Shown here one piece after another: positions 18,245-61,013 of a stretch of 64,000 bases of DNA (position 1 is the first letter of the stretch; the number at the start of each line of letters is the position of its first letter). A program made the position numbers and the translations under genes. The notes beneath the pieces were generated by a model. It had not been told where the DNA came from. It searched no databases and saw only the letters and a program-made list of their open reading frames with translations. The stretch is from contig OX597832.1 of assembly GCA_951406725.2 (NCBI GenBank), forward strand, positions 64,046,001-64,110,000, in the 5' to 3' direction. Source of the stretch: Octopus vulgaris (taxonomy: Eukaryota).

Positions 18245-18388
18245 TAATAACATCGAAAAATATCTTATGAATGGGAACCCAGGTTCGAAATATCCTCAAG
18301 TCACCTGATGAAGGCTGGAGGGTATATCAGCCGAAACATTGTGTTAACAACAAACAAGATGAGGAGAAATATCCGTCAAGTGTAAATA
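17896..18388 (+). mobile_element. tRNA-headed element with (AAT)n spacer and a 3' minimal hammerhead (18300-18345)
   Basis: A-box ggcgtagtgttc and B-box gttcgattc at 17899-17951; cac-CTGATGA-A-GGCTG-gagggtatat-CAGCC-GAAAC-ATT-gtg downstream. Confidence 0.6.
18041..18197 (+). mobile_element. R4/Dong-like LINE 3' end inserted in (AAT)n
   Basis: KIALLGTAHILRRTLSIQ* followed by a short 3' UTR; (AAT)n on both sides. Confidence 0.75.
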
Positions 18389-20434: not shown

Positions 20435-20941
20435 AAGACGGGAAGGATGACTTCCCTTTGCAAATACTGACAGGACACAGAAAGTGTGTCTATGGCCAGC
20501 TGGAGGAGTGTGTCCTCCTGGGGCTAAAAACTACAGTAGCATCCACCCTTAGGGGTTAGCCATATTGAAATGGCAAAAATACGTCACGATGTGTTACCGC
20601 TACTGTATATAACTCACTTTGATATTTATCATTGTTTGATTTCACTTTTTCAATATCAGCGACAGTGGACGCTGGAAAAAGTATAAGTATTTGTGAAGGA
20701 AATCTAATTCTCGGCGACAACTATGATTGTCACACGCTGACGAGAGGTCAATACCTCGAAACTCGAGTCCGTGTGTATCATAAGTTGAAGACGGGAAGGA
20801 TGAGTTCCCTTTGCAAATACTGACAGGACACAGAAAGTGTGTCTATAGCCAGCTGGAGGAGTGTGTCCTCCTGGGGCTAAAAACTACAGTAGCATCCACC
20901 CTTAGGGGTTAGCCATATTGAAATGGCAAAAATACGTCACG

Positions 20942-21477: not shown

Positions 21478-21680
21478 GTAACCACGTATGAATCGTTGGC
21501 GATTTTGTTCCTCCGTCTTCCTTTTCTATTGGACTTTCCTCTGTTTCTGAAGAAGAGCTCTGCTCGAAACGTTAAACCATCTTTTTTTCCTTCCCTGGGC
21601 GTCTGCTAATACTTTACATGTACCACATCCACCCGTTGTTATTTTTTTGTTTGTTCTTCATTTTGGGGGGATTTACCTTA
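21478..21680 (+). mobile_element. Penelope-type terminal fragment with a minimal hammerhead (21543-21577)
   Basis: gttt-CTGAAGA-A-GAGC-tct-GCTC-GAAAC-GTT-aaac; homologous to 42612-42819 (-) and 22796-22880 (-). Confidence 0.7.
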
Positions 21681-22895: not shown

Positions 22896-23425
22896 TAACT
22901 GAGTATCCTGGTAATATTCACAATGGAATGCCTTTATTTCAATGCTTTTATTCCATGTTAAATCATGTCGAATTTGATTAGGATGGGTTCCTGGATTATC
23001 TAGGGCAAAAAATAACGCCTCGATTAACGAAGTGTTTCGTTTTCCCACTTGGTGCATAGATGTACAGATTTTCCTTACTTCCTACCCTTGAACAACCAAT
23101 GTAAAGCTGACGATGGGCGAAGCAGAGCTCTTCAAGGTGTAAGCCGACAACCGTAAATGTTTGCCCTTGCGATTTCTTGATAGTCGTGGCAAAACTAAGA
23201 CTCACCTGAAATTGTAGTTGTTTGGATTGGAATGAGACGTCATGTCCTGAGTTTGTGCGTCGGAGATTCTATCAGTCTATGCATGTGTACCTCTTGAGAA
23301 CGCGTGACGGAAGCTCGTGTTCGCAAATCACCAAGTTTATTCCTTTTCCGTTTTGATGTTTTCTGATCTTACTGCTGAAGATTTGTGAGCGTCTTTCGAT
23401 TTATGATGCCCTAATGAAATTGCTT

Positions 23426-27675: not shown

Positions 27676-28091
27676 TATATATATATATATGTATGTGTAT
27701 ATATATGTATATATATATATATGTATATGTATATATATATATGTTTGTATATATACATATATATATGTCCATATGTATATAAATATATGTATATATGTCA
27801 ATAAGCATGACAATGAGATGTTTTGCGTTCTTGTCCTATTTTGTATTATATATATATATATGATAGAAATATTAAAATAACTAAGTCTCTCTAAAAGAGA
27901 ACAGCGGCAGCGTTCCCGGAAAATAATAGTTATCGCCATACTAATATGGCATTCTTATAAAAATAAGAAAAAAGCTGTCCGCTTATTAGCTCCATGAGGC
28001 CATCGCCTTAAGTTAGCTATTTGATACACAAACTGTATCCATATAACCTTCGAACAAGGGAGGTCAGTCGCTCCACACTACTTGACCGGCA

Positions 28092-28133
28092 GCTACAGAC
28101 GCGTTTCGGAGTATTGCCCCTTTTCAATGCAGC
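28092..28133 (-). ncRNA. Type I hammerhead, U3-A8 core variant (minus copy)
   Basis: Reverse complement of 28676-28717. Confidence 0.8.
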
Positions 28134-28675
28134 GTAGCCAGCCAGTAGGTGTCGCTTCCGACAATCTCTGTTCGATGGTTTTATTTACCTAGTTTCGGTG
28201 GAATACATCCACTTGTTTTCAATAATAGAAATATTAAAATAACTAAGTCTCTCTAAAAGAGAACAGCGGCAGCGTTCCCGGAAAATAATAGTTATCGCCA
28301 TACTAATATGGCATTCTTACAAAAATAAGAAAATACTCCGAAACGCGTCTGTAGCTGCCGGTCAAGTAGTGTGGAGCGACTGACCTCCCTTGTTCGAAGG
28401 TTATATGGATACAGTTTGTGTATCAAATAGCTAACTTAAGGCGATGGCCTCATGGAGCTAATAAGCGGACAGCTTTTTTCTTATTTTTATAAGAATGCCA
28501 TATTAGTATGGCGATAACTATTATTTTCCGGGAACGCTGCCGCTGTTCTCTTTTAGAGAGACTTAGTTATTTTAATATTTCTATTATTGAAAACAAGTGG
28601 ATGTATTCCACCGAAACTAGGTAAATAAAACCATCGAACAGAGATTGTCGGAAGCGACACCTACTGGCTGGCTAC

Positions 28676-28717
28676 GCTGCATTGAAAAGGGGCAATACTC
28701 CGAAACGCGTCTGTAGC
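28676..28717 (+). ncRNA. Type I hammerhead, U3-A8 core variant, predicted cleavage after C28711
   Basis: gctgca-TTGAAAA-GGGG-caata-CTCC-GAAAC-gc-GTC-tgtagc: 6-bp helix I, 4-bp helix II, palindromic helix III (ACGCGT). Confidence 0.8.
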
Positions 28718-28880
28718 TGCCGGTCAAGTAGTGTGGAGCGACTGACCTCCCTTGTTCGAAGGTTATATGGATACAGTTTGTGTATCAAATAGCTAACTTA
28801 AGGCGATGGCCTCATGGAGCTAATAAGCGGACAGCTTTTTTCTTATTTTTATAAGAATGCCATATTAGTATGGCGATAAC

Positions 28881-28954
<74 letters not shown>

Positions 28955-31401: not shown

Positions 31402-32313
31402 CGAGAGTGTACCCAAAAGAAACCGGAATTTTGCAATATAATTTTATTGACTTGTTTGTACATGTTTACACTTTCATCTCTTTCTAAGTATTCTCCATTT
31501 GAAGCAATGCATCGGTACAGACGCGTTTTCCACTGTTCGAAGCAGCACTGGGACTCTTGTGAAGTGATGCCTCTTAACGCCTCTGTCGTTTTATTTTTTT
31601 CACCTCTTTCACATCTGCAAATTCCGTATCACCAGCTTCCGTAATCAATAACGAGACCTTCGAGAAAAGTTCGGGATCAACTTCCAGCCGTTTTTTCAGT
31701 TCACGACACACATTCAGGCGTGACTGCTTTTCATCTTCCATGAACAAGCGAGGTACAAATTTTGCTGCAACTCTTTTCAGTCGGAATTCCTCGCTCATAA
31801 TTCGTCTGCAGGAGTTCCAAGAGTCACCAGTCATATTAATAGGTTCATCAATTGTTCGGTAACGGCTCTCTAAGATAATTTCAACAATTTTCATGATGTT
31901 TTCATTCATTCGGCAGGTCGATGGTCGCCCTGATTGAGATTGGTTTTCAAGCGACAAGTCCCAATTCCTAAAGCGTGGAAACCACTTGTAAACTTGTGTT
32001 TTGTTCATGGTAGCCTCCTTGTAAGCTATTTGAGGCATGGGAAATGTTTCGGCCACCATTTTCCCTAGCAGAAAACAGAATTCCACGGAAGCACGCTGTT
32101 CCTTCGTTTCGGCCATCGAAAAAAAAAATCGACGAACTGGGGAGAAGCACTACAAAACAAAGACGCACCACGTGGTAGTAGGATTACAGTCGACGACGCC
32201 ATTTGGCAGACTAATGCCTGGGGATCGCATCAAGTGGCTTCTAGCGGTGGAAGCCTGAACTACAACAGACTTGTCCAAAAGAACGTTTCCGGTTACTTTT
32301 GGGTACTCCCTCG
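31402..32313 (-). mobile_element. Internally deleted mariner transposon with TIRs and TA TSDs
   Basis: TIRs cgagagtgtacccaaaagaaaccggaa / ttccggttacttttgggtactccctcg, with TA on each side. Confidence 0.92.
31574..32116 (-). pseudogene. Mariner transposase N-terminal (HTH DNA-binding) portion; catalytic domain deleted
   Basis: EQRASVEFCFLLGK...VYKWFPRFR...SGRPST...KRVAAKFVPRL, then a jump to C-terminal FADVKEVK. Confidence 0.85.
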
Positions 32314-45731: not shown

Positions 45732-46808
45732 ATGGAACTGTCAAAGCGCGATATCCGAACAATTCAACTTCAAAAAAGGACGTAAAGCAATTGAAACTGC
45801 TCGCGATATCAACGAAACATTTGGTGAGGAAATGACTAGTGAGTGGTCATTTCGAAAATGGTTTAAATGATTTCGCAGTGGAGACCTGGGCCTTGAAGAT
45901 CGTGAGCGTAGTGGACGCCCATCTGTCATCGATGACGGTAAATTAAAGACCGTCATTGAGAAAGATACACGTAAAACCACCCGAGAACTGGCAAATGAAC
46001 TTCAGGTTAGACAGAAAACTGCCTACAACCATTTGCATGCAATCAGAAAATCAAAAAGGCTCGACAAATGGGTACCGCACGATTTGAATGAAAATCAGAA
46101 AATGCGCAGATATGAAATTTGCTCGTCGCTTCTTCTCCGTAACCAGACCGACTCATTGCCTTACCGTATTGTAACTTGCGATGAAAAGTGGATTCTGTAC
46201 CACAATAAAAAACGTTCTTTGTAGTAGTTGGACCAAAATGAAACACCGAAAACCTCTAAACCCGAGCTTTTCAAAAAGAAGGTTATGGTGACTGTTTGGT
46301 GGTGTACTGCTGAACTCATCCACTATAACTTCTTAAAACTCGGAAAAAAACCATTACTACAGAAACATATTGCCATGAAATTGCCAAAAATGAACGAAAA
46401 TCTGTTACTCCTCCGTCCCGCACAGGTCAGTAGAAGAGGGCCAATGATTCTTCATGACAATGCTCGACCTCCCTAATGACGCTCCAGAAGTTGAGGGAAC
46501 TTGGCTACAAAGTTTTTCCGCTCCCAGTTTATTCTCCAGACCTTTCTCCTACGTATTATCACTTTTTCAAGCACCTTGATGGTTTCTTGCGAGAAGAGTT
46601 CAAAAATCAAACCGCTGCTGAAAGTGCGTTCAAAGAGTTCATCAGCTCCAGAACTCCAGATTTTTATGTTACCAGATTAAACAAACTTGGCAAAAATGTG
46701 TTGGTTGCAATGGTTCTTACTTTGATGAATAAAATGTCCGCATTGTTGAGATATATTGTGACGAATTTCATGTTTCAAAAGGTTACTTGCTTTTTACTCA
46801 GCCTGATT
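45732..46808 (+). pseudogene. Mariner (Mos1/Hsmar1-like, DD34D) transposase pseudogene with 3' TIR
   Basis: MELSKRDIR...SGRPS...KWVPHDL...RIVTCDEKW...KKVMVTVWW...LHDNARP...YSPDLSPTYYHFF with stops and frameshifts. Confidence 0.93.
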
Positions 46809-47027
46809 TAAGTATGGATTTGTTCATAGTTTACAAACGGAAAGAGCTGAATCTTCCACAAGCCTGCATTGACACACACGCACACACCACCACGCTTATA
46901 CTGACATGATCAACAAAATATCGTGAAACTCGGAAGAGCAACATTGAGTCATTTCAGCATCATGATAATTATTTACATTTTATTTGGTCACTGAGTATTT
47001 GTATAGGAATTGTGTGATTGTATGTGC

Positions 47028-53231: not shown

Positions 53232-53316
53232 CTTGGCACTGTTCCTGACGAAGGCAAGAAATGTATAGAAAGGTGTCCGCTCGTAATCCAATGGTTGTCT
53301 GAGACGGATGCTGCCA
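53232..53316 (-). CDS. Internal exon of a cadherin-superfamily gene (extracellular cadherin repeat)
   Basis: ttttcctctttcag|t-GSIRLRQPLDYERTPFYTFLAFVRNSAK|gtaaac; 85 nt, phase 2 to 0; G.I.L...LDYE....Y.L signature. Confidence 0.85.
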
Positions 53317-59760: not shown

Positions 59761-61013
59761 TTCATTTCATTTCATCTAGTTTTAGCTCACGAGCTGTGGC
59801 CATGCTGGGGCACCGCCATTCGGTGTTGCTACATGATTTTACTTCACGAATGCTTTTTAGCAATTGACATTTGGTGCATGAGAGAGTTTGATGCAGCTGC
59901 CCTCATCTGCACCTCCTGCCGTGAAGTTGGTTCATCTGGGACACCTGACAGGAAGAGGTCCAGCTTTATTTTAAAGACATCTGCATCCACCCCATGCAGG
60001 TCTCTCAGGTCCTTCGGGAGGATATTGAAGAGCTGTGGACCTCTGAAGCCCAGACTATCGCAGTATCTTGTCTTACATCTTGATAGCAAATTTGGAGTCC
60101 TTGGCACTATGCAGTGGCGCCCAGTTCTAGTATTTGTGTAACTCTCGATACCAAAGTTTGGGACAAGTCCTTCTAGGATCTTCCAGATGTATATTATGGC
60201 ATATCTTTCTCGCCTACGCTCTAAGGAGTAGAGTCTTAATCTTTTGAGTCTTTCCCAATAGCTTATATGCTGCATAGAGGCTATCTTCGTGTAGCTTCGT
60301 TGGATTGCCTCAAGAACTGTGATTAATTTGACACTGGTTGGTGACCATAGCTGAGAGCAATAGTCAAAGTGGCTTAGGACAAGTGTCCTCCAGAGGACCA
60401 TCATGGTTACCTGGTCTCTTGTTCTAAAAGCTCTACGAATCCATCCGGTCAGCCGCCTACATTTCATTGCCAATTTAGCAACATGCACATGAAAGGTTGC
60501 ATCATTACTCATATAAATACCCAGGTCTCGCACTGATTGTAACTCTGGGATTGCAATCCCTCTAGGTCCAGTGTATTTATAGGGTATTGCATTTAGTTTT
60601 GCATGCTGATAGCATAAAGCTTGACACTTTTCAGCATTGAACTGCATGCTATTCGTTTCAGTCCACTTGTATATTTTGTCCAGCTCACATAGTGTCTTCA
60701 GGGTTCTGTATTACCTGTGAAACTTTTGTATCATCTGCATAACTTGTGATCGTGGCTCTCTGCGTGGCTGGGAGCATGTCTGAGAGGGCCATTATGAACA
60801 GCAGTGGTCCCAAAACAGTGACTTGCGGAACACCGCTCACTATTTACGTGTTATTGGAGGTGGTCCCATTGACTACTACCACTTGACTTCTATCCTTCAG
60901 AAAGTCATGAAGCCATTCTCCCAATTTTCCAACTATGCCAAGATCACGCAGTTTGTGACATATCATTCCATGATCGATTATATCAAAGGCCTTTGCAAAG
61001 TCACTTCCACATT
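59761..61013 (-). pseudogene. 5'-truncated CR1/Jockey-group LINE: RT domain, C-terminus and 3' tail
   Basis: DFAKAFD, SGVPQ-TVLGPLLFIM, YADDTK, FNAEKC, VRDLGIYM, DYCSQLWSP, SYWERLKRLRLYSLERRRER; tail ends in (TGAAA)n. Confidence 0.93.

What the first reader, a model, noticed from the sequence alone, without database searches (positions are those of the whole stretch)
27863..28886. Very young inverted multimer with a natural U3-A8 hammerhead core
Seen: the core reads UUGAAAA instead of CUGANGA, a double change that preserves the 3-8 pair, with intact helices and GUC. About 1.3 minus units join about 1.5 plus units, and the inversion point (28332) falls inside loop II of the ribozyme. This creates ~410-bp near-perfect arms (27923-28331 vs 28478-28886). 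Established: the C3-G8 tertiary pair tolerates compensatory swaps, and inverted partial copies are a hallmark of Penelope-type integration. Inference: recent Penelope-RT-mediated insertion. If the locus lies in the cadherin intron, the minus HHR is in the sense strand and the long dsRNA is a likely ADAR substrate.
Basis: partly seen in the sequence, partly recalled or inferred. Interest (0 to 1): 0.82.

Follow-up and report, generated by a model that had tools for sequence, protein, structure and literature searches.

The report
Penelope-type hammerhead retrozyme inserted head-to-head
This is one young copy of a short jumping RNA element that carries a self-cleaving hammerhead motif; its copies nearly always land as two back-to-back halves starting at two different fixed points, which suggests that Penelope-type enzymes copy RNA into both broken DNA ends at once.

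Summary
Observation confirmed: a 362-bp unit, 1.31 copies minus joined to 1.53 plus, 411-bp arms, type I hammerhead with U3-A8. It is one of many copies (1,356 core matches) of a young non-LTR retrozyme. U3-A8 is published for Penelope hammerheads (PMC4209133) and is fixed here, with no C3-G8 copy. The loop II breakpoint is chance (1 of 120 ends, 1.7 expected). The family is the real result: 69 of 89 loci are head-to-head, mostly in (TA)n, and all 60 with two canonical ends pair one short end with one 63-nt-tailed end. Twenty of the 60, including this one, cannot be fold-back copies. Best model: a Penelope RT-endonuclease primes both target ends at two RNA start sites, and the cDNAs join by microhomology. 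The partner enzyme was not identified. The copy probably lies in a ~68-kb cadherin-like intron, where its hammerhead would be buried in the hairpin; editing, cleavage and this locus's own junction are untested. In passing: an L1/Tx1-like LINE inserts at one fixed site in the unit; the scan noted similar targeting in two other genomes.

The parts
27860..28333 (-). Minus arm, 1.31 units (unit position 127 through to 238), ending at the tailed 3' end
27860..27922 (-). 63-nt tail (unit 176-238) that only this arm carries at its end
   Evidence: tail concept from PMC8557442 and PMC11167929
28083..28144 (-). Complete type I hammerhead, U3-A8 core (U3 at 28127, predicted cut between 28098 and 28097); sense to the cadherin-like gene and masked in the long hairpin
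28332..28333 (.). Head-to-head junction, 2-nt overlap; one extra substitution at 28320
28332..28886 (+). Plus arm, 1.53 units (unit 345 through to 175), ending at the short 3' end
28332..28355 (+). 3' half of a hammerhead (from loop II through the cut site and stem I 3' strand)
   Evidence: sequence
28665..28726 (+). Complete type I hammerhead, U3-A8 core 28682-28688, predicted cut after 28711
28650..28666 (+). Empty target site (unit 301-317) of a site-specific L1/Tx1-like LINE; mirror site at 28143-28159 on the minus arm
28388..28397 (+). Unit 39-48, short palindromic hairpin; family hotspot of junction ends (also 28750-28759)
   Evidence: 19 of 120 ends, 3.3 expected
28587..28625 (+). Second, degenerate hammerhead-like motif (UUGAAAA, 5-bp hairpin, GAAAC) starting at the tailed end; not shown to be a ribozyme
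27847..27862 (.). Left (TA)n target tract
28884..28953 (.). Right (TA)35 target tract
27817..27850 (+). Short end fragment of another high-copy repeat that supplied the left (TA)n tract
   Evidence: tables 2 and 7
53232..53316 (-). Cadherin-like exon (AG...GT bounded) upstream of the intron that holds the insertion; next candidate exon about 15 kb left of the window (L169:4742-4864)

Best explanation
A non-autonomous 362-nt hammerhead retrozyme was copied into a (TA)n tract by a Penelope-like RT/GIY-YIG enzyme using both ends of the cut target. Inferred steps: the endonuclease cuts both strands in (TA)n; one 3' end primes reverse transcription at a start site near unit position 238 (tailed) and the other at a site near 175 (short), always one of each; each cDNA runs a variable distance (29 nt to about 10 units) on circular or multimeric RNA; the two cDNA ends anneal through 1-7 nt and are filled in, giving head-to-head arms. 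Shown: the architecture, the two fixed ends, their strict pairing, the overlaps, the target. Inferred: the enzyme, the order of events, the RNA form. The U3-A8 hammerhead is probably an active, dimer-dependent ribozyme of multimeric transcripts (inferred from structure-keeping variation), but this intronic copy is masked by its own hairpin.
For:: 69 of 89 loci head-to-head, none tail-to-tail; 61 of the 69 with (TA)n on both sides; 60 of 60 with two canonical ends are short+tailed, 0 short+short or tailed+tailed (0.5^60 if ends were drawn independently at equal odds); overlap of 2 nt or more in 31 of 41 young junctions against 16.5% by chance; 20 of 60 arm-length pairs, this locus among them, cannot be fold-back copies; the arms share subfamily markers (position 350: 26 of 27; N7: 27 of 27); two young intact RT+GIY-YIG families (781 and 775 aa) also end at two sites beside (TA)n, and 4 of 4 inverted pairs seen are short+tailed; the 781-aa family has its own U3-A8 hammerhead; 14 of the 15 joints shown (38 in all) are head-to-head junctions of other copies in three independent short-read sets. 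PMC11167929: a purified Penelope protein cuts and extends both target strands, starts at two internal RNA sites that bound the tail, and is predicted to be a dimer; pair-keeping changes in stems I, II and the loop III palindrome; N7 free (A, C, U).
Against: No partner found: neither intact family shows more than short AT-rich blastn matches to the unit. A single RNA template for both arms is not shown: locus-private substitutions are in every copy of both arms in only 3 cases against 111 otherwise, and marker agreement could reflect one active source at a time or conversion between arms. The arms overlap in sequence, so one template needs strand displacement. Forty of 60 loci are compatible with fold-back by length, and ends pile up at a palindrome (39-48). 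PMC11167929 saw no difference in start site between strands in vitro and found the hammerhead dispensable. Junction ends are not enriched at the predicted cut (5 of 120, 3.3 expected). Twenty of 89 loci showed no adjoining inverted arm.
Confidence: 0.72

Rival explanations
1. One target-primed cDNA folds back at a palindrome and copies itself, or self-priming occurs on an antisense template (the model in PMC3846280); the tail difference arises when the second end is resolved.
For: Hotspot of junction ends at the 39-48 palindrome (19 of 120) and some symmetric junctions (44/44, 79/79); 40 of 60 loci fit by length; explains marker agreement and tail on one arm only without two primers.
Against: 20 of 60 loci, including this one (tailed arm 474, short arm 555), have neither arm contained in the other; would need extra template jumps.
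Confidence: 0.15
2. Mobilised by a LINE through classical twin priming, for example by the L1/Tx1-like element that associates with the family.
For: A LINE is tightly associated with the unit; twin priming gives inversions with microhomology (recalled).
Against: Twin-primed arms should not overlap in sequence (recalled), these do; no poly(A); that LINE inserts into the unit at one site with a 16-17-bp duplication, not into (TA)n.
Confidence: 0.04
3. Two independent insertions met in one (TA)n tract.
For: (TA)n tracts are reused; the left tract belongs to an older repeat end.
Against: No TA spacer at most junctions, no tail-to-tail pairs, strict short+tailed pairing, subfamily agreement.
Confidence: 0.02
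4. Fold-back or assembly artefact at this locus.
For: Its own junction was not shown in the contigs displayed; inverted Penelope structures trouble assemblies (PMC8557442).
Against: The flanks are not mirrored, arm lengths are not nested, ends obey the family rule, and the same class of junction is in independent short-read sets.
Confidence: 0.04

Closest known systems
Metazoan non-LTR retrozymes (PMC7229834; bioRxiv 10.64898/2026.07.22.740005)
   Same: Non-coding tandem unit within the 170-400-nt range, one type I hammerhead per unit with stem I 6 bp, stem II 4 bp and a short palindromic stem III, strongly self-paired, dispersed short multimers, co-occurs with Penelope-like elements.
   Different: U3-A8 core; mostly head-to-head insertions with two fixed ends and a tail, which I did not find described for retrozymes in the parts read; no pLTR homology to the two autonomous families checked; expression, cleavage and circles not shown.
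Endonuclease-bearing Penelope-like elements, Neptune type (PMC8557442, PMC3846280, PMC11167929)
   Same: Inverted 5'-truncated copy, tail on one end only, microsatellite targets, hammerhead, microhomology junctions.
   Different: No ORF; tail 63 nt rather than 30-40; a strict one-short-one-tailed rule is counted here (60 of 60), where those papers call the tail optional or often at one end.
U3-A8 minimal hammerheads of Schistosoma Cercyon-type elements (PMC4209133)
   Same: Same 3-8 swap, about 1,300 hits there.
   Different: There mostly single, heterogeneous minimal motifs; here a canonical-size hammerhead in a homogeneous young family.
Target-specific Tx1-clade LINEs: Tx1 in Tx1D, Keno in U2, Tx1-Mar (PMC4494074)
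   Same: The associated LINE has one fixed target in another repeat and forms tandem arrays.
   Different: The target is a retrozyme just 5' of its hammerhead; older copies abut other sequences, one the start of a U1 gene; clade not tested by a tree.

Membership tests
Type I hammerhead ribozyme | Three helices around the conserved core, with a 3-8 pair and an NUH triplet | tested here: met
   U3-A8 in 15 of 16 variants; GUC in all 16
Type I hammerhead ribozyme | Structure-keeping variation in homologues | tested here: met
   3 pairs change on both sides, 0 in slid controls; the rows were chosen by me and are related, and the pair count did not beat shuffles (175/500)
Type I hammerhead ribozyme | 3-8 covariation within this family | tested here: not met
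   no C3-G8 copy; U3-A8 fixed
Type I hammerhead ribozyme | Rfam model match | tested here: not met
   0 matches at gathering score (also none for the C3-G8 motif at 20737)
Type I hammerhead ribozyme | Self-cleavage | not testable with these tools
   only assembled contigs were on offer
Non-LTR retrozyme | Short non-coding tandem unit, one type I hammerhead per unit | tested here: met
   362 bp, up to 9.9 units in tandem
Non-LTR retrozyme | Dispersed young copies, mobility through RNA | tested here: met
   fixed 3' ends, variable 5' ends, many chromosomes
Non-LTR retrozyme | Expressed as linear and circular monomers | tested here: inconclusive
   one closed-cycle contig in a run only guessed to be RNA
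Penelope-mobilised element | Inverted truncated copy, tail on one end, microsatellite target | tested here: met
Penelope-mobilised element | Sequence shared with the pLTR of an autonomous partner | tested here: inconclusive
   none with two families; other GIY-YIG families seen were not followed to intact copies
Autonomous Penelope-like element | RT plus GIY-YIG ORF | tested here: not met
   no ORF of 90 aa or more within the unit
Tx1 clade (associated LINE) | Zinc-knuckle ORF1, endonuclease-RT-zinc-finger ORF2, fixed target | tested here: met
Tx1 clade (associated LINE) | RT phylogeny within Tx1 | not tested
   label rests on recalled architecture

The most novel reading that the evidence does not exclude
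Penelope integration is obligately two-primed: one dimeric enzyme-RNA complex gives one start site to each target end, so head-to-head arms and a tail on exactly one arm are the normal product, and animal retrozymes are true Penelope cargo. The same unit has become the dedicated landing site of an L1/Tx1-like LINE that may have shifted from snRNA-like targets and may use the hammerhead about 45-60 nt downstream to define its RNA 3' end.
Probability: 0.45. Interest if true: 0.75.

Novelty: new variant of a known kind. Interest (0 to 1): 0.52.

Why it matters
What the family adds is a countable rule, one short and one tailed end in 60 of 60 insertions. That constrains how Penelope enzymes finish integration, a step PMC11167929 leaves unvalidated and PMC8557442 names as open. 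It also gives insertion-structure evidence, not only co-occurrence or homology, that Penelope machinery moves retrozymes. A 362-nt RNA with two mapped start sites is a compact test substrate. Each insertion also plants a long near-perfect hairpin, in this case probably in an intron.

Tried and rejected
Loop II significance: rejected. Within-family 3-8 covariation: not found. Cleavage signature at junction ends: none (5 of 120 at unit 1-10). Same-molecule test: one search showed L039 and L048 variants in every copy of both arms, but the systematic count gave 3 against 111 (it trims arm ends and drops alleles seen at other loci), so not claimed. Partner search: the 781-aa and 775-aa families gave only short AT-rich matches; the protein search gave 576 RT/GIY-YIG relatives and no useful name. 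No RNA holder listed among 24 runs; this says nothing on expression. Run X8 (RNA is a guess) gave a 392-nt contig, 362+30, which a circle, a multimer or tandem DNA would all give; it showed no A>G or T>C differences at depth 8.5, which is no test of editing. My cadherin motif scan over 264 kb found one exon only; this was a filter fault, and the splice-site scan found more. Rfam: nothing in the window. The second hammerhead-like motif at 28587 lacks a proper 10.1-11.1 pair and is left unexplained. Earlier scan notes by place, by sequence and by one word search: none. The wider fetch of LINE loci could not be made, so LINE 5' ends rest on 15 short stretches.

Full report
OBSERVATION. The element is a 362-bp unit in two arms: minus 27860-28333 (1.31 units) and plus 28332-28886 (1.53 units), overlapping by 2 nt, with a 411-nt inverted repeat holding one mismatch. 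It lies between (TA)n tracts. I number the unit from the base after the predicted GUC cut (window 28350). Each arm holds one complete type I hammerhead with UUGAAAA, stem I 6 bp plus an extension, stem II 4 bp, and stem III 2 bp around a palindromic dinucleotide. The unit folds at z = -7.06. Rfam gave nothing at gathering score. The host is a 2.8-Gb animal assembly in 227 contigs; a cephalopod by my recall of size and microsatellite load, not tested.

FAMILY. A DNA search gave 1,211 candidates, 40 scored, 168 matches, most at 99-100%. A 25-letter core pattern gave 1,356 matches and 0 for the reversed control; 99 of the 100 listed were U3-A8. C3 occurs in 4 of 1,356, always with A8; a looser pattern found G8 twice, always with U3; the exact C3-G8 form was absent. 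So U3-A8 is fixed and there is no 3-8 covariation inside the family. N7 varies (A, C, U), as expected of the free position. On 16 subfamily variants that I chose from 62 distinct ones, 96.7% of cells pair and three pairs change on both sides (stem I extension, 10.1-11.1, loop III palindrome), with none in slid controls; the pair count alone did not beat shuffles (175 of 500) and the rows are related. Activity is therefore inferred, not shown. U3-A8 is in print for Schistosoma Penelope hammerheads, about 1,300 hits (PMC4209133).

INSERTION RULE. I mapped arms at 89 loci: 60 of the 61 C1 loci among the first 100 core matches (the LINE-split locus was left out) and 29 identity-ranked loci (two long multimers spanning several records were left out; both are short+tailed). 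Both samples need a core or a full unit, so short insertions are missed. Sixty-nine are head-to-head and none tail-to-tail; 61 of the 69 have (TA)n on both sides. Outer ends fall at unit 168-180 (short) or 232-241 (tailed). In 60 loci both ends are canonical, and all 60 pair a short with a tailed end; 9 have one non-canonical end; 20 show no adjoining inverted arm (one is short+tailed across a 133-nt gap). Inner ends are scattered: loop II 1 of 120 (1.7 expected), hammerhead core 7 (9.9), unit 1-10 five (3.3), but unit 39-48 nineteen (3.3). Overlaps of 2 nt or more occur in 31 of 41 young junctions against 16.5% by chance. In 20 of 60, including this locus, neither arm could be a copy of the other. 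Arms agree at position 350 in 26 of 27 and at N7 in 27 of 27; common-variant calls agree 258 to 29; locus-private substitutions are shared in only 3 cases against 111.

PENELOPE LINK. A GIY-YIG search gave 6,136 candidates, 150 scored. One family has a 781-aa RT, CxxC linker, GIY-YIG frame (Neptune type by the linker described in PMC8557442), a U3-A8 minimal hammerhead and two 3' ends about 30-37 nt apart beside (TA)n; its 3 inverted pairs seen are short+tailed. A second family (775 aa; all 150 scored copies at 100% rounded identity over 200 aa) also has two ends, and its 1 pair examined is short+tailed. Neither matches the unit beyond short AT-rich stretches, so the partner is unknown. PMC11167929 reports cutting and extension of both target strands, two internal start sites bounding the tail and a predicted dimer, but no strand difference in start site and no need for the hammerhead. 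PMC3846280 instead proposes self-priming at palindromes.

MECHANISM. Best reading (0.72): two-ended target-primed reverse transcription, one start site per end, then joining of the cDNAs by microhomology. The ends, pairing, overlaps and target are shown; the enzyme, timing and RNA form are inferred. Fold-back (0.15) explains the palindrome hotspot but not the 20 non-nested loci without extra jumps.

READS. Twenty of 24 listed runs, from 12 studies, hold the stretch, all as contigs. I laid 27797-28475 on 4 runs: 14 of the 15 joints shown, of 38, link a minus-arm place to a plus-arm place with 0-4 shared letters, 4 of them in two runs. They are junctions of other copies, so the class is real in short-read data. 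This locus's own junction was not among the 32 pieces shown.

HOST CONTEXT. Splice-bounded cadherin-like exons lie on the minus strand at 53232-53316 and, left of the window, at L169:4742-4864 (with a DxNDNxP motif, recalled) and L168:8323-8598 (ending in a hydrophobic stretch); the first two join in frame, giving an intron of about 68 kb. Pfam support is weak: E 0.011 for the first, no cadherin match for the other three tested. In that strand the antisense arm is made first and all 62 hammerhead bases pair into the 411-bp stack; forcing the ribozyme fold costs 112 kcal/mol. Cleavage of the pre-mRNA is therefore unlikely; editing is plausible and untested.

ASSOCIATED LINE. A 5.35-kb LINE (zinc-knuckle ORF1; endonuclease, RT, zf-RVT ORF2) splits one locus with a 17-bp duplication of unit 301-317. 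Of 30 3' ends examined among 41 matches, all 19 at 97.9% identity or more (15 places; 5 copies form one tandem array) and 1 more abut that site; the 10 others (83-96%) abut other sequence, one the first base of a U1 gene. Ten of 15 stretches held the 5' end and all 10 abut unit 317. Two earlier scan notes report similar targeting in other genomes; I found this case before reading them and did not check theirs.

LITERATURE SEEN. PMC4209133: parts 1-2 of 4 (abstract to start of methods). bioRxiv 10.64898/2026.07.22.740005: parts 1-3 of 5; its supplements were not seen and could bear on inverted retrozymes. PMC11167929: whole main-text section and passages; supplements not read. PMC8557442, PMC7229834, PMC3846280, PMC4494074: passages only. 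Other papers: search listings. I found no paper stating the strict pairing, head-to-head retrozymes, or a LINE targeting a retrozyme in searches; the library lacks most subscription journals and Repbase reports.

VERDICT. A real, young, Penelope-type retrozyme insertion; a new variant of a known kind. The headline features are known or chance; the family rule and the LINE give it moderate interest (0.52).

Noticed in passing
G000:C1:162622090-162627443 (L046/L047) and L111-L140, L226-L240; empty sites at window 28650-28666 and 28143-28159: An L1/Tx1-like LINE inserts at one site of the retrozyme unit just 5' of the hammerhead, with a 16-17-bp duplication; 19 of 19 youngest 3' ends and 10 of 10 5' ends found abut it; a 5-copy tandem array lies on C2.
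   Followed up: partly
L138:1749-1912 (G000:C18): An older copy of that LINE (83%) abuts the first base of a U1 snRNA gene; most other old copies abut ATAC- or ATAT-starting sequence, hinting at a target shift. L134 has a U2 gene about 400 bp away on the other strand.
   Followed up: partly
L240:640-708: A 69-nt 3' fragment of the LINE sits at the same site in the opposite arm of a locus whose other arm holds a full-length copy.
   Followed up: no
L141-L157; L158, L241-L244: Two young intact Penelope-like families (781 aa with a U3-A8 minimal hammerhead; 775 aa with no hammerhead found downstream of the ORF), both with two 3' ends beside (TA)n.
   Followed up: partly
window 20725-20780 +: Canonical C3-G8 type I hammerhead with a palindromic loop III, from a different repeat.
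   Followed up: no
window 21538-21585 + and 18296-18355 +: Two more hammerhead-like motifs (minimal type, CUGAnGA core); not verified.
   Followed up: no
window 28587-28625 + (mirror 28222-28184 -): Second, degenerate UUGAAAA...GAAAC motif starting right at the tailed end of the unit; resembles a Penelope minimal hammerhead.
   Followed up: partly
window 28388-28397 and 28750-28759: Palindromic hairpin at unit 39-48 collects 19 of 120 junction ends; could be an RNA 5' end, an RT stop or an annealing site.
   Followed up: partly
window 27817-27850: End fragment of another very high-copy repeat finishing in TATTAT plus (AT)n; the retrozyme inserted into its tail.
   Followed up: no
L099:1-292, L184, L185, L063, L072: Older subfamilies of the unit (about 80-87% identity) keep U3-A8 (two U3-G8 copies aside) and similar ends, so the family has expanded in several waves.
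   Followed up: partly
window 31574-32149 -, 45871-46811 +, 59844-60710 -, 22996-23268 -: Fragments that look like mariner transposases, a LINE RT end and a helicase piece (by recall from translations).
   Followed up: no
L176:183-503 -, L169:4742-4864 -, L168:8323-8598 -: Further cadherin-like exons on both sides of the window, the last with a membrane-like stretch; many small exons over more than 130 kb.
   Followed up: partly
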